From IMG/VR virus record IMGVR_UViG_2585427786_000006: a stretch of DNA of 43,020 nucleotides; one strand, written 5' to 3'. This DNA is from a virus (Duplodnaviria > Heunggongvirae > Uroviricota > Caudoviricetes). The position numbers and the translations under genes are program-made. This document shows positions 3,436 to 41,782 of this stretch, in pieces. Below the pieces are notes generated by a model that ran no database searches, was not told the origin of the DNA, and saw only the letters and a program-made list of their open reading frames with translations. Numbering within the stretch: the stretch's first letter is position 1; each line of letters starts with the position of its first letter.

Positions 3436-3610
3436 TATCGCGTCCTCAACAATGAATTTTGTGATGCAGTGCCTGGTGCCTCCAGGTGACGTTAACCAGT
3501 TAACAATTAACGCCGGATACAGAGAATCCACCCATAACACTGTTTTTGGTTTTAACTGTTCCGCGTGCGCTTAGCCGCATTCACCGCATCACAAAATTCA
3601 CTTTAAAAAC

Positions 3611-3662
3611 GGCGGCAGAGCAGTCACGGAGTAAAACTGATACCGCCAAACGTCACCAGAAA
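3611..3662 (-). ncRNA. dicF: DicF small RNA
   Basis: Reverse complement reads TTTCTGGTGACGTTTGGCGGTATCAGTTTTACTCCGTGACTGCTCTGCCGCC followed by GTTTTT, recognised as DicF with its intrinsic terminator. Confidence 0.8.
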
Positions 3663-4483: not shown

Positions 4484-4636
4484 TCAGTCAGTGTTTCTGG
4501 CTAACCAGCAACGCGCGCCAGATTCGGTTTTAAACGTTTTGCTTTTGGTATATGTCATCGCGGTGAACGTACCGTCCTGGTTGGGGAACACGCCACATAC
4601 CAGAGATTCGCTGTTGCCAAGATCGATAGTATCCAT
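4484..4636 (-). CDS. YdfA-like small protein (50 aa)
   Basis: MDTIDLGNSESLVCGVFPNQDGTFTAMTYTKSKTFKTESGARCWLARNTD; first gene downstream of the DicA-type operator. Confidence 0.45.
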   Translation of the reverse strand: MDTIDLGNSESLVCGVFPNQDGTFTAMTYTKSKTFKTESGARCWLARNTD

Positions 4637-4752
4637 GCTGACCTCATTTCCCCTTAACGCCGGGGTAGCGGAACTGTTTGCTGAGAACACCGTGCGGTGT
4701 GTTGATGGAGGTAATTTAGTTTTCTCATTATTTTTCGTCAAGGTTTTTTGAT

Positions 4753-8665: not shown

Positions 8666-8922
8666 ATACAGCGAACTCCATTGGTTTAGTTGGATATTTA
8701 CTGTGCTGGACAAAACGGTTTGCGGGGAAATCTTAGTTAAGTAGAATGACTGCGGGTGCTTGAGGCTATCTGCCTCGGGCACGAACACCAACGGCAGGTA
8801 GAGAAAAGCCCCAGTTAACATTACGCGTCCTGCAAGACGCTTAACATTAATCTGAGGCCAATTTCATGCTAGACACATGTAGGTTAGCCTCTTACGTGCC
8901 GAAAGGCAAGGAGAAGCAGGCT

Positions 8923-9078
8923 ATGAAGCAGCAAAAGGCGATGTTAATCGCCCTGATCGTCATCTGTTTAACCGTCATAGTGACGGCACTGGTAACGAGG
9001 AAAGACCTCTGCGAGGTACGAATCCGAACCGGCCAGACGGAGGTCGCTGTCTTCACAGCTTACGAACCTGAGGAGTAA
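8923..9078 (+). CDS. hokD: Hok-family type I toxin (51 aa)
   Basis: MKQQKAMLIALIVICLTVIVTALVTRKDLCEVRIRTGQTEVAVFTAYEPEE recognised as HokD/RelF; AAGGAG RBS; in-frame upstream extension from ATG 8866. Confidence 0.8.
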   Translation: MKQQKAMLIALIVICLTVIVTALVTRKDLCEVRIRTGQTEVAVFTAYEPEE

Positions 9079-10959: not shown

Positions 10960-11337
10960 ATGCGTGATATTCAGATGGTTCTTGAGCGTTGGGGGGCATG
11001 GGCGGCTAATAATCATGAAGATGTGACCTGGTCGTCCATTGCCGCCGGTTTTAAGGGATTAATTCCTTCAAAAGTAAGATCTCGTCCGCAATGCTGTGAC
11101 GATGACGCGATGATCATTTGTGAATGTATGGCTCGCCTGAAAAAAAACAACAGCGATTTACATGATTTATTGGTGGACTATTATGTCGGCGGCATGACTT
11201 TTATGGCGCTTGCACGTAAGCATGGGCGATCTGATTGTTGGGTTGGCAGGATGCTCCAGAAAGCTGAGGGCGTAGTGGAGGGCATGCTGATGGTGTTGGA
11301 TCTCCGATTGGAGATGGATGCTGATTGTTCGAAATAA
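10960..11337 (+). CDS. late-gene antiterminator Q (125 aa)
   Basis: [26 protein letters not shown]... recognised as lambdoid Q (DLP12/21-type); followed by promoter-like element and short-RNA terminator. Confidence 0.75.
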
Positions 11338-11378: not shown

Positions 11379-11435
11379 TTTAAATGTTGGAATCGCAACG
11401 TAGTTATTATCATATAACAGCTTGTTTCCTGATTT

Positions 11436-11464
11436 AGCCAGCCTCCCCAAAGGCTGGTTTTTTT
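11436..11464 (+). terminator. tR'-like intrinsic terminator
   Basis: AGCCAGCC-loop-GGCTGG hairpin followed by T7 run. Confidence 0.55.
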
Positions 11465-11492
11465 CTAATAAGTATCATTTCGGGTGGGGATT

Positions 11493-12017
11493 TTATTGTT
11501 TAACCCATAATAGTTCATTGACATTGAATCCCAACTTTTGAGCGGTACGCACATAGTCTGCTTTTACATTATCTGGAATAGTTTGGGTCCTTGCCAGAAT
11601 CCATAGGTATTCTCTGTTCGGACCACTGACAAGAGCATACTTATACTCATCATCCAGCTTGATTACATTATAGCCACCATAGAAGGGGCCAAAAAACGAA
11701 ACTTTCAACGCTGCAGTTTTAGTATCTCCAGTAAAGTATGCTTTACCTTCGCTCTCGCTCCATTTGTTTTTCGTTGGATCGTATCCACGGTTAAGTACGC
11801 GAATCCCTCCGTCGTTCCGTTTTTCATAAGTAGCGCTGACCTGTTCCAGACCACGTTCGAACCAGTTCTCGAGGCGAGCTATTTCATACCATTTTCCGAG
11901 GTAGCGGTTGGCGTCAAAATTTGTAATCGGCTGCACACCTTTAGGTGGTGTCGGGGCCTTACATGCTATAAGAGTGAAAGAGAGTGCAATGCCAGTCAAC
12001 ACAGGCCATAACTTCAT
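11493..12017 (-). CDS. blc: outer-membrane lipoprotein lipocalin (Blc family), 174 aa
   Basis: Lipobox LIAC; NFDANRYLGKWYEIARLENWFERGLEQVSATY...GKAYFTGDTKTAALKVSFFGPFYGGYNVIKLD recognised as Blc-like; antisense to late transcription. Confidence 0.8.
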   Translation of the reverse strand: MKLWPVLTGIALSFTLIACKAPTPPKGVQPITNFDANRYLGKWYEIARLENWFERGLEQVSATYEKRNDGGIRVLNRGYDPTKNKWSESEGKAYFTGDTKTAALKVSFFGPFYGGYNVIKLDDEYKYALVSGPNREYLWILARTQTIPDNVKADYVRTAQKLGFNVNELLWVKQ

Positions 12018-12209
12018 AATAAATCCTGTACTTTTGATAGTTGAGAGTAAGTATGAAAGATAGATGAGTACGACCGATCACTTAAAGAACTTTCCTACTA
12101 TATTAGGAATAGTCAATAACAGAAAAATTGTCAGTGATGAAGCCAGAAAGGCAATTTAGTCCGTGCACTACAAAGTTTATGTGTTAATGAATTAGTCAAG
12201 GGGGAGGAA

Positions 12210-13169
12210 ATGATAAAAAAACCTGTGATTGGGATCAGCGGTTGTTTGGGCGGTTCTGCTGTTCGTTTTGATGGTGGTCACAAAAGAGATGACTTTTTAA
12301 TGGACAAATTAGTGGAATGGGTAACATTCAGACCAGTATGTCCGGAAATGGCTATAGGGCTGCCAGTTCCGCGTCCTGCTCTACGACTTGTGCGCTCGAA
12401 GCAAGGAAATATACGGATGTGTTTCAGCCACGACCAGAATGAGGATGTGACAGAGAGAATGACAGAGTTTAGTCGTTCTTATATGGACAAATTAAAGGAT
12501 GTATCGGGGTTTGTGGTTTGTGCTAAATCTCCCAGCTGTGGCATGGAGCGCGTGCGTGTCTATGATGAAAATGGTAATCGAGGTCGTAAAGATGGAGTGG
12601 GACTATTTACGAGCACTTTGATGGAAAAGTTTTCCTGGCTACCGGTTGAAGAGGATGGGCGATTACATGATCCAGTGCTTCGTGAGAATTTTATTGAAAG
12701 AGTTTTTGCTTTGCATGAGCTCAATCACCTTTACAAGGAGAAATTATCAAGAAGAGAGTTATTAGCTTTTCATAGTCGTTATAAGCTTCAGTTGTTGGCG
12801 CATAGCCAGGCAGGCTATAAAGATATGGGACCATTTGTGGCTGCAATACACGAGTGGGCGGACCTTGAATCATACTTTGAGGTGTATCGTGATAATCTGA
12901 TGGCGATTCTCAGAAAACCAGCATCACGTAAAAATCACACGAATGTGCTGATGCATATACAGGGGTATTTTAGTAATTACTTAAGTACACGCCAGCGTAA
13001 AGAGTTGAGCGAGGTTATACTTAACTATCGCTTTGGCACATTGCCTCTTCTTGCGCCGTTGACTCTGCTGAAGCATTATCTGGGTGAGTATCCTAATGAT
13101 TACTTGCTTACACAGAATTACTTCGATCCCTATCCGGAAGAACTGGCTCTAAGACTGATGGTGAATTAA
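12210..13169 (+). CDS. DUF523 (TudS-like, Cys-rich)-DUF1722 (YbgA-like) fusion protein, 319 aa
   Basis: N-terminal GISGCLGG...CPEMAIG...CAKSPSCG motifs; C-terminal YbgA-like region; GGGGGAGG RBS. Confidence 0.55.
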   Translation: MIKKPVIGISGCLGGSAVRFDGGHKRDDFLMDKLVEWVTFRPVCPEMAIGLPVPRPALRLVRSKQGNIRMCFSHDQNEDVTERMTEFSRSYMDKLKDVSGFVVCAKSPSCGMERVRVYDENGNRGRKDGVGLFTSTLMEKFSWLPVEEDGRLHDPVLRENFIERVFALHELNHLYKEKLSRRELLAFHSRYKLQLLAHSQAGYKDMGPFVAAIHEWADLESYFEVYRDNLMAILRKPASRKNHTNVLMHIQGYFSNYLSTRQRKELSEVILNYRFGTLPLLAPLTLLKHYLGEYPNDYLLTQNYFDPYPEELALRLMVN

Positions 13170-13575
13170 CTGTATGCGATATCATCTGAAAGTGATGAGT
13201 TCCTGTATGCAGGATATTTACAATCGTAAAAACTACGCTATGATGCTCATAGTGTCAGTTTTTATAAAAATCCTGTTCACGCTAAAGAAAACATTGAGAT
13301 GCAATTTAATGTTGGTAAACATACCAGCCCCAAACGATTTTATTCAATCTGTTTTTATATGAAGATATTTCAAGTGAATATTAAGAGTATATAATATTAT
13401 TATTGCACGCAGCTATTATAATATAACAGATTAGTTTAATGATTTGTTTTTTGTGAGTTAAACACATGGTTTTATAGTTGTGATGCAATGAGATTTTCCT
13501 TATTGTTGAACTGGCGAATATTGATTTTCCACCTATACTTACCTGGTGTAACCCCAATGATATCAGGTGGATAAT

Positions 13576-14289
13576 ATGCCATACATATGTTCTATCATTT
13601 TGGTGTTGAACTCGTTTGGTGTCCGAATTGGTAAAGAAGATATTTTGTTTAAAAAAGGAAATGCTGTCCTCATTGAATACAATTTAAAAGATCTTTTTTC
13701 GTCAAATACAGATCATCTAATGATCGTAGATGTTGAGGAGAAAACAGTTAATGATTTCTTTAAAAACTACACACTCTCACCTTTTTCTGTAAGAAGGTTT
13801 TATCCGTCATACTTGATAGTAGAATGTGAAGATTTTTCATTGTTAAAGAACTTGGTTGCATGCTTGAATTGTGATAGCAAAACCGTGGATGTAGTTAGAA
13901 ATCAAATATCACTTGCATGTCTTGCTGTCTTATCTTCAGAGAAAATAGTGCAAAGTTTTTTGTTCGGAAGTCTTAATAGCTTAGGTTGTAAAGTTAAGGC
14001 TATTATTCACTCGGATATCTCAGCGTCATGGAGACTTTGTGATATATCTTCAAGATTATATATGAGCGAGAGTTTGTTAAAAAGAAAATTAAAAGACGAA
14101 GGATTATCGTTTAGTAAATTAATTCTTGAAGAACGAATGATGATGGCGCAAAGATTATTGATCTACAGTAACCATACTGTCGGCAAGGTGGCGGGAATAT
14201 GCGGGTATGACAATGCATCATATTTTGTAAGTGTTTTTAGAAGATATTTTGGTGTGCCTCCGCACCAATATTTATCAAGATTTTCTTAG
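13576..14289 (+). CDS. AraC-family transcriptional regulator, AppY/GadX-like (237 aa)
   Basis: C-terminal AraC HTH (LCDISSRLYMSESLLKRKLKDEGLSFSKL...ICGYDNASYFVSVFRRYFGVPPHQY); N-terminus resembles AppY; AT-rich gene and flanks. Confidence 0.75.
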   Translation: MPYICSIILVLNSFGVRIGKEDILFKKGNAVLIEYNLKDLFSSNTDHLMIVDVEEKTVNDFFKNYTLSPFSVRRFYPSYLIVECEDFSLLKNLVACLNCDSKTVDVVRNQISLACLAVLSSEKIVQSFLFGSLNSLGCKVKAIIHSDISASWRLCDISSRLYMSESLLKRKLKDEGLSFSKLILEERMMMAQRLLIYSNHTVGKVAGICGYDNASYFVSVFRRYFGVPPHQYLSRFS

Positions 14290-14356: not shown

Positions 14357-14389
14357 TACGCCAGAATAATTGCTGGCGTTTTTCTTTTT
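14357..14389 (+). terminator. intrinsic terminator after the AraC-family gene
   Basis: CGCCAG-AATAATT-GCTGGCG hairpin then TTTTTCTTTTT. Confidence 0.5.
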
Positions 14390-14479: not shown

Positions 14480-14695
14480 ATGAAATCCATGGATAAGTTA
14501 ACAACGGGCATCGCCTACAGCACCTCTGCAGGCAGTGCTGGCTACTGGTTTTTACAGTTGCTCGATAAAGTCACACCCTCACAGTGGGCGGCAATAGGTG
14601 TATTGGGTAGTCTGGTATTTGGCATGCTGACGTATCTGACAAACCTTTATTTCAAGATTAAAGAAGACAGGCGTAAGGCTGCGAGAGGAGAGTAA
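14480..14695 (+). CDS. pinholin, phage-21 S-type with dual start (71/68 aa)
   Basis: [71 protein letters not shown]; GGAGGTGAGG RBS; Met1 and Met4 starts. Confidence 0.8.
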
Positions 14696-14942: not shown

Positions 14943-15239
14943 TTATTCAATGTCTGGTAGCTTATCAAAGATTTCGGATACTCTTATATTTGTCATATAA
15001 GCAAATTGAGATTCTGCCAGCTCTTTGGGTGATTTTCCCGCTTTTTCTGAGCCAAAAATTGTTTCTAAAGCCAGCATGTTATATTTGAGAACCTCTTCTC
15101 GAGTTTTACCTGATAATTTTGCGGTAACAGCAATATAAAAAGGCAACACTTTATCCAGAAGGTCGTTGTGTTTTGTCAGTTGTGGTAATACCACATCAAG
15201 TTGCTTACTGATTGGTTTGAATGGATCTATACCGTTCAT
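14943..15239 (-). CDS. hypothetical protein (98 aa), antisense gene inside the lysis cassette
   Basis: ATG preceded by AAGGGA; non-repetitive protein MNGIDPFKPISKQLDVVLPQLTKHNDLLDK...; candidate TTAAGC-N17-GATACT promoter in 15270-15330. Confidence 0.5.
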   Translation of the reverse strand: MNGIDPFKPISKQLDVVLPQLTKHNDLLDKVLPFYIAVTAKLSGKTREEVLKYNMLALETIFGSEKAGKSPKELAESQFAYMTNIRVSEIFDKLPDIE

Positions 15240-16394: not shown

Positions 16395-16757
16395 ATTAAT
16401 ATTAAATCGGATTATTTTTAGCGCTGAATGTGAAATTTAAATAAAAAGGACTCTTCCATGAGTCAAAATCCTTGAAATCTTAAGGGTAAGATAAAAGGTC
16501 ATTAGACAGAATGACACGTTTTATTAATAAATAAAGCTATTGTTTCATTCGTGTGTTTTTCTTTACAAAAGTAATCCTTGCTATGGTTGGTTAATCATGC
16601 GTTAATGGTGTTCTGGTTTGTTACAAAATTATCTGAAGCAGTCATTGTTATAATTTTATTATTTGTACCTCTTGAGATTTCCTTGTTGGTTTTTCTCTCT
16701 GATATTTTTTTTCGGACCATTCTGCCCAAGGGCTAACTTCTTCAAAAGGTAATAATG

Positions 16758-16970
16758 ATGTCTAACAAAATGACTGGTTTAGTGAAATGGTTTAACCCTG
16801 AAAAAGGTTTTGGTTTCATCACGCCGAAAGATGGTAGCAAAGATGTGTTTGTCCATTTCTCAGCTATTCAGAGCAACGATTTCAAAACGTTAACTGAGAA
16901 TCAGGAAGTCGAATTTGGTATTGAGAACGGACCTAAAGGCCCCGCGGCTGTTCATGTTGTGGCACTTTGA
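16758..16970 (+). CDS. cspI: cold-shock protein CspI-like (70 aa)
   Basis: [39 protein letters not shown]... with RNP motifs; long AT-rich 5' leader upstream. Confidence 0.85.
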
Positions 16971-17169
16971 GGTAGAAAATATTACAAACCATATTCACTT
17001 TAGATGCCCGTGTTGCCATGGTTCTCAGTATAGAACATCATCTTTTGATGTTTCTGACAGGAATCCTTTCGGGGCAAAATGTATCTTTTGTAAATCAATG
17101 ATGATTACATTTGATAATATTTCACAATACTTAAATGTTAGCCGTCTGTCGTTAGATTTAAGAAAGTGA
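16954..17169 (+). CDS. YnfN-like Cys-rich small protein
   Basis: ...[54 protein letters not shown]; ATG overlapping the cspI 3' end; start uncertain. Confidence 0.4.
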
Positions 17170-19418: not shown

Positions 19419-21518
19419 ATGGGTTTTTCATCAGCCCGAAATTTGGGAAGGGACATATCGGCAGGATTTTCCCCACCACGTCGCATGCCGATTTCGGAGG
19501 CTGTTAAAAAATTCATGCGTGTTCCCAAGGGGGCTGGTAACTCGGTGCCATGGGATCCTGAACTGACACCCTACATCATTGAGCCCATGAACTGCCTGGC
19601 ATCGCGTGAATACGATGCGGTGATTTTTGTTGGTCCTGCGCGAACAGGGAAGACCATTGGTCTGATCGATGGATGGATTGTCTATACCATCGTTTGCGAT
19701 CCTTCGGACATGCTCGTTGTGCAGATGACCGAAGATAAGGCCCGCGAGCATTCAAAAAAGCGCCTCGACAGAACGTTCAGAAGCAGTGCGGCGGTAAAGA
19801 AAAGAATGAGTCCACGTCGTAATGACAATAATGTCCATGATAAGACGTTCAGGGATGGCTCGTTCCTTAAAATTGGTTGGCCCTCGGTCAACATTATGTC
19901 GTCGTCGGATTACCGGTTTGTCGCCTTAACCGATTACGACCGTTTTCCGGAGAATATCGACAGCGAGGGTGATGGTTTCTCCCTGGCCTCAAAACGTACC
20001 ACCACATTTATGTCCGCCGGGATGACTCTGGTGGAGAGCTCGCCGGGACGTGACATCTGCGACAGCAAATGGCGACGTAAGTCGCCTCATGAAGCGCCAC
20101 CGACGACTGGTATTCTTTCCCTTTACAATCGTGGTGACCGCCGCCGCTGGTACTGGCCATGTCCGCACTGCGGTGAATATTTTCAGCCAGCCATGGATGC
20201 CATGACCGGCTACCGTAATGAACCGGATCCCTTTAAAGCCAGTGAGGCGGCGTATCTACTTTGCCCGCACTGCAGCGGCATTATCACTGCGGAGAAAAAG
20301 CGTGAGCTCAATAGTGCAGGAGTCTGGTTGCGTGAAGGTCAGGTCATTGATTGTAACGGCAACGTTTCCGGTGAACCGCGCCGCTCCCGTATCGCCAGTT
20401 TCTGGATGGAAGGGCCAGCTGCTGCGTATCAGACCTGGGCGCAACTGGTTTACAAATTACTGACTGCAGAACAGGAGTATGAAGCGACAGGAAGTGAAGA
20501 AACACTCAGGGCGGTTATCAACACCGACTGGGGATTACCTTATCTTCCCCGCGCCAGCATGGAGCAACGAAAAAGTGAACTGCTTGAGCAGCGGGCAGAG
20601 CCAGTTCCTTCCCGCAGTGTGCCAGATGGCGTTAATTTTCTTGTGGCGACAGTGGATGTGCAGGCGGGACGTCATCGCCGTTTTGTGGTTCAGGTAACGG
20701 GCTATGGCAGCCGTGGCGAACGCTGGATTATTGATCGTTACAACATCACGCAGTCATTGCGCGGTGACAGCGACGGGGAGAGCCAGCGAATTGATCCGGC
20801 CAGCTATCCGGAAGACTGGGATGTCCTGCTGACGGATGTTTTTCATAAAAGCTGGCCGCTGGCCTCCGATCCTTCTCAACAAATGCGACTGATGGCAATG
20901 GCGGTGGACTCCGGCGGTGAAGACGGGGTCACTGATAATGCCTATAAATTCTGGCGTCGTTGCCGTCGTGATGGCCTTGGTAAACGTATTTACCTGTTTA
21001 AGGGCGACAGCATCCGGCGCGCAAAACTGATCACCCGTACATTCCCTGATAACACCGGACGAACGGGCCGACGGGCGCAGGCCGCAGGTGATGTGCCGCT
21101 CTGGCTTCTTCAGACGGATGCACTGAAAGACCGGGTGAATAACGCGTTATGGCGTGACTCGCCAGGTCCCGGCTATGTGCATTTCCCTGACTGGCTGGGG
21201 AGCTGGTTTTACGACGAACTGACGTATGAAGAGCGGAGCAGTGACGGGAAATGGAGTAAGCCGGGTCGCGGTGCCAACGAAGCTTTTGACCTGATGGTGT
21301 ATGCCGAGGCTCTGGTCATTCTGCATGGATACGAAAAGATCCGCTGGCCGGATGCACCGGAGTGGGCGAGCCGGGAAACCTGGCTGGAGTGTGTCCCGGA
21401 CAGTACCGAACCGTCATCCTCACCGGAACCGGTATCCACGCCTGTTAAAAAACAAAAACGGAAGAAAACAGTAACTGACGATGTTAACCCCTGGCTGACT
21501 TCCGGAGGATGGTTATGA
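19419..21518 (+). CDS. terminase large subunit (gpA-like), 699 aa
   Basis: Walker A GPARTGKT; lambda A-like N-terminus; TAGGAGG RBS. Confidence 0.9.
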   Translation: MGFSSARNLGRDISAGFSPPRRMPISEAVKKFMRVPKGAGNSVPWDPELTPYIIEPMNCLASREYDAVIFVGPARTGKTIGLIDGWIVYTIVCDPSDMLVVQMTEDKAREHSKKRLDRTFRSSAAVKKRMSPRRNDNNVHDKTFRDGSFLKIGWPSVNIMSSSDYRFVALTDYDRFPENIDSEGDGFSLASKRTTTFMSAGMTLVESSPGRDICDSKWRRKSPHEAPPTTGILSLYNRGDRRRWYWPCPHCGEYFQPAMDAMTGYRNEPDPFKASEAAYLLCPHCSGIITAEKKRELNSAGVWLREGQVIDCNGNVSGEPRRSRIASFWMEGPAAAYQTWAQLVYKLLTAEQEYEATGSEETLRAVINTDWGLPYLPRASMEQRKSELLEQRAEPVPSRSVPDGVNFLVATVDVQAGRHRRFVVQVTGYGSRGERWIIDRYNITQSLRGDSDGESQRIDPASYPEDWDVLLTDVFHKSWPLASDPSQQMRLMAMAVDSGGEDGVTDNAYKFWRRCRRDGLGKRIYLFKGDSIRRAKLITRTFPDNTGRTGRRAQAAGDVPLWLLQTDALKDRVNNALWRDSPGPGYVHFPDWLGSWFYDELTYEERSSDGKWSKPGRGANEAFDLMVYAEALVILHGYEKIRWPDAPEWASRETWLECVPDSTEPSSSPEPVSTPVKKQKRKKTVTDDVNPWLTSGGWL

Positions 21519-28413: not shown

Positions 28414-31400
28414 TTTGGGGATTGATGCGGCAGAGTTTAAAAATGAAATTCCCCGTATCAAAAACCTTCTGAATGGTGCCGCCAGCGATGCAGAACGGTC
28501 TTCTGCCCGTATGCAGCGTTTTATGGAGCGTCAGACTCAGGCCGCCCGGCAGACAACGCAGGCGGCTTCTTCGGCTGCAACAGCCGCCTCCGTCCATGCG
28601 CAGACGGTGGAGAAGAACGCACAGGCTCATGAACGCATGGCCCGCGAGGTGGAGAAACCCCGCCAGCGCATGGAGGCGCTGAGCCAGAAAATGCGCGATG
28701 AACAGGCGCAGGCCATGGCTCTGGCGGAGGCTCAGGATAAAGCGGCTGCTGCGTTTTATCGTTAGATTGACAGTGTGAAACAGGCCAGTGCGGGGCTGCA
28801 GGAATTACAGCGTATTCAGCAGCAGATCCGACAGGCCAGAAACAGTGGCGGGATTGGTCAGCAGGATTATCTGGCGCTGATTTCTGAGGTTACGGCGAAA
28901 ACCCGTGTTCTTACACAGGCTGAGGAAGAGGCTACCCGACAGAAAGTGGCGTTTATCCGTCAGCTTAAAGAGCAGGCAACCCGCCAGAATCTTTCATCTT
29001 CTGAGTTGCTTCGTGCTAAGGCAGCCCAGCTGGGGGTAAGCAGTGCTGCAGAAGTGTATATCCGCAAAATGGAGCAGGCAGGAAAAGCCACGCATTCGCT
29101 GGGTCTGAAAAGTGCAGCAGCCCGCCAGGAGATAGGCGTTCTGATAGGTGAACTGGCCCGCGGCAATTTAGGGGCGCTGAGGGGATCCGGGATAACGCTG
29201 GCTAACCGTGCCGGATGGATAGACACACTGATGTCACCGAAAGGCATGATGCTTGGCGGGGTTATTGGCGGTATTGCCGCGGCCGTCTATGGTCTGGGTA
29301 AAGCCTGGTATGACGGTCAGAAGGAGGGGGAAGAATTTAACCGCCAGTTGTCGCTGACGGGGCATTATGCCGGAGTTACTGCCGGGCAGCTGTGGACGCT
29401 CAGTCGTGCTATTTCCGGGAATGGTATCACGCAACATGCTGCAGCCGGTGCGCTGGCTCAGGTGGTGGGGAGTGGTGCATTTCGTGGAAACGATATCGGT
29501 ATGGTGGCGAGAGCTGCCGCACAGATGGAGCGATCGGTTGGCCAGTCGGTCAGCGATACCATAAATCAGTTTAAGCGGCTGAAGGATGATCCTGTAAATG
29601 CCGCGAAGGCTCTGGACAATGAGCTGCATTTTCTTACTGCCACTCAGCTTGAGCAGATACGCGTCCTTGGGGAGCAGGGGCGGTCCAGTGATGCTGCACG
29701 GATAGCCATGTCTGCACTGGCAGAGGAAACCGGTCGGCGTACTGCGGATATTGATAATAACCTCAATGCGCTTGGCAGTACGCTGAAGTATCTGTCTGAT
29801 TTGTGGAGTCGTTTCTGGGATGCGGCCATGAATATTGGTCGTGAAGACTCGCTGGATGAACAGATTGCCGCTTTACAGGAGAAAGTGTCGCGGGCGAAAA
29901 GACTCCCCTGGACGGCATCATCTTCTCAGGTTGAATACGATCAGCAGCGTCTTAACGATCTTCAGGAGAAAAAACGCCAGAAGGATTTGCAGGATGCAAA
30001 AGAGCAGGCAGAGCGGAATTATCAGGAGCAACAGAAACGCCGTAATGCTGAAAATGCTGCACTGAACCGGATGAATGAAACGGAAGCAGCACGACATCAG
30101 CGTGAAATTGCGCGTATTAATGCCATGCAGTACGCCGATCAGGCTGTCAGGGATGCGGCGATACAACGTGAAAATGAACGTTACGAGAAAGCCCTGGCAT
30201 CCGGTAAGAAAAAAACACGCGAAACCCGTAATGATGAGGCCACCCGGTTATTGCTGCAGTACAGCCAGCAACAGGCACAGGTGGAAGGACAGATTGCTGC
30301 TGCAAGACAGTCAGCAGGCATTGCCACTGAAAAGATGACAGAAGCGCATAAACAGCTTCTGGCTCTGCAGCAGCGCATCAGCGATCTGGACGGGAAAAAA
30401 CTGACGGCAGATGAAAAGAGTGTGCTGGCCCGTAAAGATGAACTGATTCAGGCACTGACGCTGCTGGATGTAAAACAGCAGGAGCTTCAGAAACAGACGG
30501 CACTCAACGATCTGAAGAAAAAAACAATTCAGCTGACCAGTCAACTGGCTGAAGAAGAGCGCGCTCAGCGTCAGCAACATGACCTGGATATCGCCACGGT
30601 GGGTATGGGTGATCAGCAGCGGCAGCGATATCAGGTACAACTGAGCCTTCGCCAGAAATACCAGCAACAGCTGGAGCAGTTGAGGCGGGATAGTGAGCAG
30701 AAAGGGACATATAACACGGATGACTACAGAAAGGCCGAGCAGGCGCTGACGGAGAGCCTGAACAGGCAACTGAATGAGAATCGCCGTTACTGGCAACAGC
30801 TTGAAATTGCTCAGGGTAACTGGAAAAACGGTGCCATGCGGGCGTTTCAGAATTTCACGGCAGATGCGGATAATGCGGCAGGCACTGCGGAGCAGATGCT
30901 TACAGCGGCATTTAATAGTGCAGGTAATGCACTGGCTACATTCTGTACCACCGGAAAACTGAACTTCAAATCTTTTACCGCCTCGCTCCTTTCTGATCTG
31001 GCAAAAATCATGGCTCAGATGTCCATGATGCAGACAGTTAAGGGGATTGGTTCGGCGTTTGGCTGGGGGAGTGCAGCAACTGCCAGTGTGACGCCCAATG
31101 CTGATGGTGGTGTTTATCAGTCTGCTGATTTGAGTCGCTACAGTGGCACGGTGGTTAACCGTCCGACGTTTTTTGCTTTTGCAAAAGGTGCAGGTGTGAT
31201 GGGGGAAGCTGGGCCTGAAGCCATTCTGCCTCTGCGTCGTGGTGCTGACGGTAAGCTGGGGGTTGTGGCGGATATTGGTGGTTCAGGTATGGCGATGTTT
31301 GCCCCGCAGTACAACATCGAGATCAATAACGATGGCACGAACGGGCAGATAGGTCCGGCTGCCCTGAAGGTGGTTTATGACCTCGGGAAAAAAGCAGCAG

Positions 31401-31459
31401 CGGACTTTATGCAACAGCAGGCCCGTGATGGTGGTCGGTTAAGTGGAGCATATCGGTAA
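28385..31459 (+). CDS. tail tape measure protein gpH-like, interrupted by in-frame TAG at 28763-28765
   Basis: N-terminus MDQIANLVIDLGIDAAEFKNE... and C-terminus ...INNDGTNGQIGPAALKVVYDLGKKAAADFMQQQARDGGRLSGAYR as lambda H; single frame throughout with one amber codon. Confidence 0.8.
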
Positions 31460-33847: not shown

Positions 33848-37249
<3,402 letters not shown>

Positions 37250-41207: not shown

Positions 41208-41782
41208 TGGTATTCAGAATGAGTGAACAACCACGGACCATAACAATTTATAATCTGCTGGCCGGAACTAATGAATTTATTGGTGAAGGTGATGCATATA
41301 TTCCGCCTCATACAGGTCTGCCAGCAAACAGTACCGATATTGCACCGCCAGATATTCCGGCAGGCTTCGTGGCTGTTTTCAACAGTGATGAGGCATCGTG
41401 GCATCTCGTTGAAGATCATCGGGGTAAAACGGTTTATGACGTGGCTTCCGGCGACGCGTTATTTATTTCTGAACTCGGTCCGTTACCGGAAAATGTTACC
41501 TGGTTATCGCCGGAAGGGGAGTTTCAGAAGTGGAACGGCACAGCCTGGGTGAAGGATACGGAAGCAGAAAAACTGTTCCGGATCCGGGAGGCGGAAGAAA
41601 CAAAAAACAACCTGATGCAGGTAGCCAGTGAGCATATTGCGCCGCTTCAGGATGCTGCAGATCTGGAAATTGCAACGGAGGAAGAAATCTCGTTGCTGGA
41701 AGCATGGAAAAAGTATCGGGTATTGCTGAACCGTGTTGATACGTCAACTTCACAGGATATTGAATGGCCAGCACTGCCGTAG
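41207..41782 (+). CDS. tail fiber assembly protein (Tfa)
   Basis: M(V/A)[42 protein letters not shown]...; TAATG overlap with stf stop. Confidence 0.85.

What the first reader, a model, noticed from the sequence alone, without database searches (positions are those of the whole stretch)
12210..13169. DUF523(TudS-like)-DUF1722 fusion protein encoded in the late-region accessory island
A 319-aa protein with an N-terminal Cys-rich DUF523-type domain (the family that includes thiouracil desulfidases) fused to a YbgA-like DUF1722 domain. Such a nucleobase-modification-related enzyme is not expected in a phage late region and could act on thiolated nucleobases or tRNA.
Basis: inference. Interest (0 to 1): 0.5.

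Follow-up and report, generated by a model that had tools for sequence, protein, structure and literature searches.

The report
Prophage copy of tRNA thiouridine eraser RudS
The gene is real and is a prophage-borne copy of RudS, a known iron-sulfur enzyme that strips the light-sensitive sulfur from 4-thiouridine in tRNA; a 92% identical phage version has already been tested in the laboratory, so the finding is correct but not new.

Summary
The 319-aa ORF at 12210-13169 (+) exists. It matches Pfam PF04463 (2-thiouracil desulfurase/DUF523, E 5.8e-40) and PF08349 (DUF1722, E 9.4e-40). This fusion is the published RudS family, tRNA 4-thiouridine desulfidases (Jamontas 2024, PMC11417400). The window protein is 92% identical to RudS_vir (Escherichia phage 1H12 gp66). 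That paper showed RudS_vir lowers s4U in E. coli tRNA. The three Fe-S cysteines (C12/C44/C110), the catalytic E46/R55/S107/S109 and the tRNA-contact residues R19/S239/R240 are invariant in 77 distinct homologues. dN/dS against 1H12 is 0.14.

The gene lies in the moron slot of a Qin-like lambdoid E. coli prophage: Q, terminator, blc (reverse strand), rudS, hairpin, AraC-like gene, terminator, holin. It is very common, occurring in 1136 of 5426 complete E. coli genomes and in isolated phages.

Three points are incremental:
- Two papers state that E. coli lacks RudS. About a fifth of sequenced strains in fact carry it on a prophage.
- blc-rudS appears to have been captured from an enterobacterial chromosomal locus, without that locus's MerR-like regulator.
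- RefSeq and PHROGs still label the gene "YbgA family" or "unknown function".

Verdict: already known, low interest. What the gene does for the phage or the lysogen remains open.

The parts
12210..13169 (+). rudS coding sequence (319 aa plus stop): TudS-DUF1722 fusion, a tRNA 4-thiouridine desulfidase
   Evidence: ORF. Pfam domains. 92% identical to the tested RudS_vir of phage 1H12 (paper). RefSeq CDS WP_000592549.1 named 'YbgA family protein'. phrog_3275 matches full length, 'unknown function'.
12228..12656 (+). Catalytic TudS/DUF523 domain (residues 7-149) with [4Fe-4S] ligands C12, C44, C110 and catalytic E46, R55, S107, S109
   Evidence: PF04463, E 5.8e-40. Aligns to the TudS structure 6Z92 at E 8.4e-4 as a single sequence and 5.5e-6 as a profile. 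All listed residues are invariant in 77 distinct sequences and shared with TudS. Their roles come from mutagenesis of RudS_KT.
12783..13136 (+). DUF1722 domain (residues 192-309), the tRNA anticodon-arm binding module; S239/R240 correspond to RudS_KT S243/R244
   Evidence: PF08349, E 9.4e-40. NCBIfam YbgA model NF007549 scores 189 bits, below its 237 cutoff. S239 and R240 are invariant. Role taken.
12200..12207 (+). Shine-Dalgarno sequence GGGGGAGG, ending 2 nt before the ATG
   Evidence: Read directly from the sequence.
12092..12109 (.). 18-bp palindrome TTCCTACTATATTAGGAA centred on a TATATT hexamer; candidate promoter (-10) or operator retained from the chromosomal blc / MerR-operon intergenic region
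   Evidence: Inverted repeat found and conserved in phage 1H12. A related element, ATTCGTAGTATATTGAGA, lies at the same offset (81-82 nt from the blc ATG) in 33 of 40 chromosomal blc-linked loci. Function is inferred, not shown.
13226..13265 (+). Strong hairpin 57 nt after the rudS stop, followed by a U-run; candidate terminator closing the rudS unit
   Evidence: Terminator scan. RNA fold gives dG -17.6 kcal/mol, z -6.4, and 0 of 200 shuffles fold as well.
11493..12017 (-). blc-like outer-membrane lipocalin gene, divergent from rudS; part of the same captured module
   Evidence: PF08212, E 7.5e-43. NCBIfam Blc scores 312.6 bits against a 267 cutoff. A Blc homologue of 68-80% identity lies divergently upstream of rudS in 43 of 64 chromosomal loci and in 79 of 80 viral contigs.
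13576..14289 (+). AraC-family (YdeO/GadX-like) regulator gene, GC 33%; third gene of the island
   Evidence: PF12833 and PF00165. Best NCBIfam match is YdeO at 113.8 bits, far below the 348 cutoff. phrog_1450. 77% identical to 1H12 gp67. Present in 74 of 80 viral contigs.
10960..11337 (+). Q antiterminator (distant Q21-family member) that defines the start of the late operon
   Evidence: PF06530, E 8e-51. PDB Q21 (6P18/6JNX), E 5.2e-9. RefSeq coordinates.
11436..11466 (+). Intrinsic-terminator hairpin plus U7, 99 nt after Q; candidate tR' on which Q acts
   Evidence: Fold gives dG -14.9, z -3.8. The assignment as tR' is inferred from lambdoid architecture.
14358..14389 (+). Terminator-like hairpin plus U-run between the AraC-like gene and the holin; it closes the island in lysogens
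   Evidence: Fold gives dG -11.3, z -2.65.
14480..14695 (+). Holin (essD-like), first gene of the lysis cassette downstream of the island
   Evidence: PF04971, E 6.1e-34. RefSeq essD.

Best explanation
The gene encodes a RudS-type tRNA de-modifying enzyme. The N-terminal TudS domain holds a [4Fe-4S] cluster on C12, C44 and C110. The free fourth iron binds the sulfur of 4-thiouridine at tRNA position 8. E46, held in place by R55, S107 and S109, activates water and converts s4U to uridine. The C-terminal DUF1722 domain clamps the anticodon arm (S239/R240) so that whole tRNA is the substrate rather than free thiouracil. Erasing s4U8 removes the near-UV photosensor that crosslinks to C13, blocks aminoacylation and triggers ppGpp-mediated growth delay. 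In this genome the gene is cargo (a moron) of a Qin-like lambdoid prophage of E. coli. It lies with blc and an AraC-like regulator gene between Q and the lysis genes. It was probably captured, together with blc, from an enterobacterial chromosomal blc / MerR-like / transthyretin-like / rudS locus, and it lost the MerR-like regulator in the process. It is therefore most likely transcribed in two ways: sense, by Q-modified late transcription after induction, and possibly from its own retained promoter element in the lysogen, ending at the hairpin at 13226-13265. Shown: domain identity, residue conservation, near-identity to an assayed phage enzyme, context and prevalence. Inferred: activity of this exact allele, its promoters, and which partner (phage or lysogen) benefits.
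For: Both Pfam domains score far above their cutoffs. The protein is 293/319 identical to RudS_vir (phage 1H12 gp66) and 311/319 identical to the copy in the isolated phage IdasGreatGrand. The RudS paper lists 1H12 gp66 with Cys12/44/110. It reports that all six tested RudS variants reduced s4U in E. coli tRNA. It also reports that RudS_vir gave the shortest lag on 4-thiouracil but lower tRNA activity than RudS_ST at a similar protein level. The catalytic and tRNA-binding residues defined by mutagenesis are invariant in 77 distinct sequences. F20 corresponds to Y25, and the Y25F mutant keeps wild-type activity. TudS 6Z92 is the only match at E <= 0.001 in the PDB, with the ligand residues aligned. 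Selection is purifying: dN/dS is 0.14 against 1H12 and a median of 0.17 among 35 phage-borne alleles, none with an internal stop. Context: Q, blc, rudS, AraC-like gene, holin and lysozyme, with the same linkage in 74-79 of 80 viral contigs. Chromosomal relatives of 66-76% identity sit behind a MerR/MlrA-like gene in Enterobacter, as the paper describes for E. cloacae and Salmonella. The blc-proximal intergenic DNA is homologous between phage and chromosome. Hairpin terminators bracket the units.
Against: No assay exists for this exact allele, which differs from RudS_vir at 26 residues. RudS_vir was the weaker tRNA desulfidase per unit of protein and the best of the RudS set on free 4-thiouracil, so the phage clade may have a somewhat shifted substrate preference. 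No consensus sigma-70 promoter was found in the blc-rudS intergenic region at the scan threshold. Expression in the lysogen is therefore unproven. pR' was not located. The light-responsive MerR-type regulator that supports the UV-response model in chromosomal loci is absent from the island. The single-sequence structure model was unusable.
Confidence: 0.9

Rival explanations
1. It is mainly a salvage enzyme for free thiolated bases or nucleotides (4-thiouracil, s4UMP), like stand-alone TudS, and not a tRNA eraser. The phage would use it to recycle thiolated nucleotides released by RNA turnover.
For: The catalytic domain is a TudS domain. Among the RudS proteins tested, RudS_vir gave the shortest lag on 4-thiouracil and lower tRNA desulfidation than RudS_ST at a similar protein level.
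Against: No RudS variant supported uracil-auxotroph growth as TudS did, and none grew on 2-thiouracil. All of them, including RudS_vir, lowered tRNA s4U. The DUF1722 tRNA-binding residues S239/R240 are invariant, which argues for selection on tRNA binding.
Confidence: 0.07
2. It is a decaying passenger gene with no current function, carried along with blc in a frequently defective prophage.
For: Some closely matching prophages have pseudogenised terminase and gpJ genes. A few copies are interrupted by IS elements. The GC content (43%) differs from both the prophage (49%) and the chromosomal homologues (54-59%).
Against: dN/dS is 0.14-0.17. None of 35 distinct nucleotide alleles has an internal stop. 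All catalytic residues are invariant. 1064 of 1136 carrier genomes have at least 80% of the gene in one piece. The gene is present in phages isolated as virions, and a sister allele is enzymatically active.
Confidence: 0.03

Closest known systems
RudS_vir (Escherichia phage 1H12 gp66, YP_009909557.1; Jamontas et al. 2024, PMC11417400)
   Same: 319 aa, 92% identical with no gaps. Same Cys12/44/110. Same genomic slot (Q, blc reverse, rudS, AraC-like gene, holin) in a lambdoid temperate coliphage.
   Different: 26 substitutions, 11 in the TudS half and 15 in the linker/DUF1722 half. The neighbouring AraC-like protein is only 77% identical. The host prophage is Qin-like with a P21-type holin, not the 1H12 backbone.
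RudS_ST / ORF319 (Salmonella enterica LT2 STM1389) and the chromosomal RudS of Citrobacter, Enterobacter, Klebsiella and Pectobacterium
   Same: Same length and cysteine positions. 66-76% identity across the full length for the Citrobacter, Enterobacter, Klebsiella and Pectobacterium copies; the Salmonella sequence itself was not retrieved or compared here. blc lies divergently upstream in 43 of 64 loci.
   Different: In Enterobacter the chromosomal copies sit in an operon behind a MerR/MlrA-like regulator and a transthyretin-like gene (the paper notes the MerR neighbour). The phage copy has neither, is 10-15 points lower in GC, and lies inside a Q-controlled late operon.
RudS_KT (Pseudomonas putida PP_0741), the biochemically and mutationally characterised archetype
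   Same: Same two-domain architecture. All residues found essential (C17/C49/C114, E51, R60, S111, S113) or important (R24, S243, R244) have identical counterparts here.
   Different: Distant sequence, not retrieved here. It lies in a LitR/photolyase light-responsive operon. Y25 and N26 are F20 and D21 here; Y25F is neutral.
TudS (stand-alone DUF523 thiouracil / s4UMP desulfidase, PDB 6Z92)
   Same: Homologous catalytic domain with the same three Cys, Glu, Arg and two Ser, and the same non-redox [4Fe-4S] desulfuration chemistry.
   Different: TudS is 166 aa with no DUF1722 domain. It acts on free thiouracils and s4UMP and rescues uracil auxotrophs, which RudS proteins do poorly or not at all.
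YbgA (E. coli b0707, stand-alone DUF1722), the name RefSeq gives this gene's family
   Same: The C-terminal 155 residues match the YbgA model (NF007549, E 4.7e-56).
   Different: The score of 189 is below the 237 cutoff. YbgA lacks the catalytic domain and had no effect on tRNA s4U. 'YbgA family protein' is therefore an under-annotation.

Membership tests
RudS (TudS-DUF1722 tRNA 4-thiouridine desulfidase) | N-terminal TudS/DUF523 domain (PF04463) | tested here: met
   Residues 7-149, full-length profile match 1-141/141, E 5.8e-40. A profile of 18 homologues hits TudS 6Z92 at E 5.5e-6.
RudS (TudS-DUF1722 tRNA 4-thiouridine desulfidase) | C-terminal DUF1722 domain (PF08349) fused in the same polypeptide | tested here: met
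   Residues 192-309, profile 1-117/117, E 9.4e-40. A single uninterrupted ORF.
RudS (TudS-DUF1722 tRNA 4-thiouridine desulfidase) | Three conserved cysteines that ligate the [4Fe-4S] cluster | tested here: met
   C12, C44 and C110 are the same positions the paper lists for RudS_vir and RudS_ST. They align to TudS C10/C43/C104 and are invariant in 77 of 77 sequences.
RudS (TudS-DUF1722 tRNA 4-thiouridine desulfidase) | Catalytic Glu, its two stabilising Ser, and the conserved Arg (RudS_KT E51, S111, S113, R60) | tested here: met
   E46, S107, S109 and R55 are present and invariant, and shared with TudS. Roles from mutagenesis.
RudS (TudS-DUF1722 tRNA 4-thiouridine desulfidase) | tRNA-contact residues (RudS_KT R24; S243/R244 in DUF1722) | tested here: met
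   R19, S239 and R240 are invariant. The correspondence is inferred from the constant -5/-4 numbering offset, not from a direct alignment with RudS_KT, which I could not retrieve.
RudS (TudS-DUF1722 tRNA 4-thiouridine desulfidase) | Conversion of tRNA s4U to U in vivo or in vitro | not testable with these tools
   Shown experimentally for the 92% identical RudS_vir, not for this allele.
RudS (TudS-DUF1722 tRNA 4-thiouridine desulfidase) | Typical (not defining) association with a MerR/LitR-type regulator or light-responsive genes | tested here: not met
   There is no MerR-family gene in the island; the neighbours are blc and an AraC-like gene. The Enterobacter chromosomal relative inspected does have a MerR/MlrA-like neighbour.
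Predicted fold of a TudS domain plus a helical DUF1722 domain | Confident 3D model superposable on TudS 6Z92 | tested here: inconclusive
   Single-sequence AlphaFold2 gave a mean pLDDT of 42.8, which is unusable. An alignment-based run was not made.
TudS (stand-alone thiouracil desulfidase) | Single-domain protein of about 150-170 aa that acts on free 2-/4-thiouracil | tested here: not met
   This is a 319-aa two-domain fusion. The RudS proteins, including the phage one, did not phenocopy TudS.
YbgA (NCBIfam NF007549 equivalog) | Whole-protein score above the curated cutoff | tested here: not met
   189.1 bits against a cutoff of 237, and only residues 161-315 match.
Lambdoid phage moron | Non-essential cargo inserted between Q and the lysis cassette, with its own terminator (and usually a promoter), and present or absent among related phages | tested here: met
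   Position. Hairpin terminators at 13226-13265 and 14358-14379. From established knowledge (not retrieved here), E. coli K-12 Qin carries cspB/cspF in this slot instead. blc is listed as a moron. The gene's own promoter is only a candidate.

The most novel reading that the evidence does not exclude
The phage uses RudS for its own benefit. Lambdoid prophages are induced by UV, and the same irradiation crosslinks s4U8-C13 in host tRNA and provokes a ppGpp-mediated translation arrest. A Q-driven s4U eraser that has lost its MerR-type light regulator would strip the photosensor from the tRNA pool and keep late-protein synthesis running. As a lysogenic-conversion variant, it would give the roughly one-fifth of E. 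coli strains that carry it a sunlight-tolerance trait that the literature says the species lacks. Either case would be the first example of a phage manipulating a host tRNA body modification by erasure.
Probability: 0.3. Interest if true: 0.5.

Novelty: already known. Interest (0 to 1): 0.2.

Why it matters
The identification itself adds nothing new, because the family was named and a near-identical phage copy was assayed in 2024. Three smaller points have practical value.

First, both the primary paper and a 2026 review state that E. coli lacks RudS, and they use this to explain differences between E. coli and Enterobacter in near-UV responses. In fact 1136 of 5426 complete E. coli genomes carry a prophage copy. 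s4U levels and UVA growth delay may therefore vary between strains.

Second, RefSeq ('YbgA family protein') and PHROGs ('unknown function') have not caught up with the literature, so the gene is invisible to annotation-based screens.

Third, the biological reason for a temperate phage to carry a tRNA modification eraser, cut off from its normal light-responsive regulator, has not been addressed. It can be tested with simple genetics.

Tried and rejected
1. Single-sequence AlphaFold2 gave a mean pLDDT of 42.8 and pTM of 0.31, which is unusable. No fold search was run on it.

2. Anti-phage defence role: no PADLOC hits for RudS, Blc, the AraC-like protein or orf98.

3. Regulatory RNA in the leader or island: nothing in Rfam. 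The only match was sub-threshold, on the terminator hairpin at 11423-11466 (28.6 bits against a gathering score of 50), and was treated as chance.

4. tRNA genes near the island, as in Stx phages: none in the whole window.

5. A MlrA-like operator, AAATTG-N21-CAATTT, at about 12127-12160, which I saw by eye. The right arm is mutated in phage 1H12 and the repeat is too short to exceed chance. Dropped.

6. Direct homology of the whole blc-rudS intergenic region with the two Citrobacter loci where the genes are adjacent. It is not alignable beyond the coding ends. Only the blc-proximal ~115 bp is homologous, to the Enterobacter-type loci.

7. APEC prophage phiv142-3 orf10 (serum resistance) as a possible identity for an island gene. 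Its knockout primers do not match the window.

8. A consensus sigma-70 promoter for rudS: none in 12018-12209 at the scan threshold.

Full report
OBSERVATION. The ORF is exactly as described: ATG 12210 to the stop at 13169, + strand, 319 aa. A strong ribosome-binding site, GGGGGAGG, ends 2 nt before the ATG. Pfam assigns PF04463 (2-thiouracil desulfurase, the former DUF523) to residues 7-149 (E 5.8e-40). It assigns PF08349 (DUF1722) to residues 192-309 (E 9.4e-40). Both are full-length profile matches far above their curated cutoffs.

WHAT IT IS. This fusion is the published RudS family (Jamontas et al., Nucleic Acids Res 2024, PMC11417400). RudS proteins are [4Fe-4S] desulfidases that convert 4-thiouridine in tRNA to uridine. 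One of the six orthologues that paper cloned was 'RudS_vir', gp66 of Escherichia phage 1H12 (NC_049947), with Cys12, Cys44 and Cys110 listed as cluster ligands. Phage 1H12 came up independently in my DNA search (H26). Its gp66 (L001:4912-5868) is 293/319 (92%) identical to the window protein, with no gaps. A second isolated phage, IdasGreatGrand, carries a 97% identical copy.

The paper reports that all tested RudS variants lowered s4U in E. coli tRNA. RudS_vir was well expressed but less active on tRNA than RudS_ST, and it gave the shortest lag of the RudS set on 4-thiouracil. No RudS variant phenocopied TudS on free thiouracils.

RESIDUE AND SELECTION CHECKS. I translated every full-length homologue fetched, giving 77 distinct sequences including the window protein. 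C12, C44, C110, E46, R55, S107, S109, R19, S239 and R240 are invariant. All of these except S239/R240, which lie in the DUF1722 domain, are shared with the TudS crystal-structure sequence. These are the counterparts of the RudS_KT residues whose mutation abolished activity (E51, S111, S113, R60 and the cysteines) or reduced it (R24, S243, R244). F20 replaces Y25, and the Y25F mutant is fully active.

TudS (6Z92) is the only PDB match at E <= 0.001, at E 8.4e-4 with the single sequence and 5.5e-6 with an 18-sequence profile. The ligand motifs are aligned. No solved structure matches the DUF1722 half.

The gene is under purifying selection. dN/dS is 0.14 against the 1H12 allele (dS 0.29). The median is 0.17 among 35 distinct phage-borne alleles, none of which has an internal stop. 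A single-sequence AlphaFold model was too poor to use (pLDDT 42.8).

CONTEXT. The window is a Qin-like lambdoid prophage of E. coli integrated next to rspAB. Several complete genomes are 100% identical over the first 25 kb of the window. DicF, sok and a cspA thermoregulator are also present.

The order around the gene is:
- DUF968/ydfU.
- Q antiterminator (10960-11337), a distant Q21-family member.
- A hairpin plus U7 at 11436-11466.
- blc-like lipocalin on the reverse strand (11493-12017).
- rudS.
- A strong hairpin at 13226-13265.
- An AraC/YdeO-like regulator gene (13576-14289, GC 33%).
- A terminator at 14358-14389.
- Holin, DUF1327, a reverse-strand orf98, lysozyme and Rz.

This is the classical moron slot, where Stx phages carry stx (established knowledge). 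There are no tRNA genes in the window, no defence-system matches and no Rfam element in the island. The linkage is tight. Of 80 viral contigs carrying the gene, 77 have this Q, 79 have blc, 74 have the AraC-like gene and 76 have the holin. Mathieu et al. 2020, who isolated 1H12, already list blc as a moron in more than half of their temperate lambdas.

ORIGIN AND REGULATION (partly inferred). Chromosomal relatives in Citrobacter, Enterobacter, Klebsiella, Kluyvera, Leclercia, Pectobacterium and Dickeya are 66-76% identical. In 43 of the 64 loci, a Blc homologue of 68-80% identity lies divergently upstream, as it does in the phage. In Enterobacter a MerR/MlrA-like regulator gene and a transthyretin-like gene sit between blc and rudS. 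This matches the MerR-type control that the RudS paper notes for E. cloacae and Salmonella.

The first ~115 bp next to blc are homologous between phage and chromosome. This stretch includes a TATATT-centred element at the same 81-82-nt offset from the blc start in 33 of 40 chromosomal loci. In the phage that element is an 18-bp palindrome (12092-12109). After it the sequences diverge. The simplest reading is that blc-rudS was captured as one module and lost its regulator.

rudS is therefore most likely transcribed sense by Q-modified late transcription, which would be antisense to blc. It may also be transcribed from the retained element in the lysogen. No consensus sigma-70 promoter was detected in the intergenic region, so this remains a hypothesis. 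The phage copy has 43% GC against 54-59% in the chromosomal copies, so the transfer is not recent from any sampled genus.

PREVALENCE AND ANNOTATION. The gene is found in 1136 of 5426 complete E. coli genomes, and 1064 of those have at least 80% of it in one piece. It is almost always chromosomal, with 1187 of 1189 places on chromosomes. RefSeq names it 'YbgA family protein'. However, the NCBIfam YbgA model matches only the C-terminal half and scores below its cutoff. PHROGs has a full-length family, phrog_3275, labelled 'unknown function'. The RudS paper and a 2026 MMBR review both state that E. coli lacks RudS. That holds for the laboratory strains but not for about a fifth of sequenced isolates.

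MECHANISM. This is taken from the family's experimental record. Three cysteines hold a [4Fe-4S] cluster. The unligated iron binds the thiocarbonyl sulfur of s4U8. Glu46 activates water, oriented by Arg55, Ser107 and Ser109. Sulfide leaves and uridine remains. DUF1722 binds the anticodon arm. Loss of s4U8 prevents the near-UV s4U8-C13 crosslink, which otherwise stalls aminoacylation and triggers the stringent response. Expression of RudS_KT in E. coli shortened the UVA growth delay. I give 0.9 confidence that this allele has that activity.

RIVALS. A mainly free-thiouracil or s4UMP salvage role gets 0.07. It is supported only by RudS_vir's relatively good growth on 4-thiouracil. A decaying passenger gene gets 0.03, and is contradicted by the selection and conservation data.

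What the gene does for the phage or the lysogen is unaddressed in the literature I could search. The most novel reading still open is that it protects late translation after UV induction, or that it confers sunlight tolerance on lysogens. I give this about 0.3.

VERDICT. However, the element is already known, down to a near-identical phage allele with published activity. Novelty: already known. Interest: 0.2.

Noticed in passing
window 12092-12109; L015 about 4620-4645: An 18-bp palindrome, TTCCTACTATATTAGGAA, lies in the blc-rudS intergenic region and is conserved in phage 1H12. A related TATATT-centred element sits at the same offset from blc in 33 of 40 chromosomal loci, just upstream of their MerR/MlrA-like gene. 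It could be a shared promoter or operator that survived capture by the phage.
   Followed up: partly
window 13576-14289 (+): A very AT-rich (33% GC) AraC-family regulator gene that is YdeO/GadX-like but far below every NCBIfam cutoff (phrog_1450, unknown function). It travels with rudS in 74 of 80 viral contigs but is only 77% identical between this prophage and 1H12. Prophage AraC-like regulators such as AppY and PatE are known to rewire host stress regulons. Its targets here are unknown.
   Followed up: partly
E. coli genome collection: Two papers (PMC11417400, PMC13602947) state that E. coli lacks RudS, yet 1136 of 5426 complete E. coli genomes carry this prophage copy. RefSeq calls it 'YbgA family protein' and PHROGs 'unknown function', so the discrepancy is hidden by annotation.
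   Followed up: yes
L056 and L061 (JARKOR010000151.1, JARKOR010000135.1): Two short contigs binned into a 'Candidatus Nanosynbacter' MAG carry the Q-blc-rudS-AraC-holin island at 85-98% protein identity to this E. coli prophage. This is almost certainly binning contamination rather than a Saccharibacteria gene.
   Followed up: no
window 14943-15239 (-): A 98-aa reverse-strand ORF sits inside the lysis cassette, between DUF1327 and the lysozyme gene. It has no Pfam hit, matches phrog_25324 (unknown function), and is present in only 3 of the 80 rudS-bearing viral contigs.
   Followed up: no
window 19419-21518 and 33851-37249; L148: In the best-matching RefSeq genomes the large terminase and gpJ are annotated as pseudogenes with internal stops. 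In the window both ORFs are intact (699 and 1132 aa). The longest tape-measure ORF in the window (28775-31459, 894 aa) is shorter than the 1024-aa RefSeq CDS. Whether this prophage can still form virions was not resolved.
   Followed up: no
window 3610-3661 (-), 8754-8928 (+), 16600-17016 (+), 41550-41748 (+): Rfam gathering-level hits to DicF sRNA, sok antitoxin RNA (with hokD), a cspA-type thermoregulator leader ahead of cspI, and IS009. These are the usual Qin-type prophage RNA cargo.
   Followed up: no
window 11436-11466 (+): A hairpin plus U7 lies 99 nt after Q and is a probable tR'. It sits 27 nt from the 3' end of the convergent blc gene, so Q-antiterminated late transcription would run antisense through blc. 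pR' itself was not located.
   Followed up: partly
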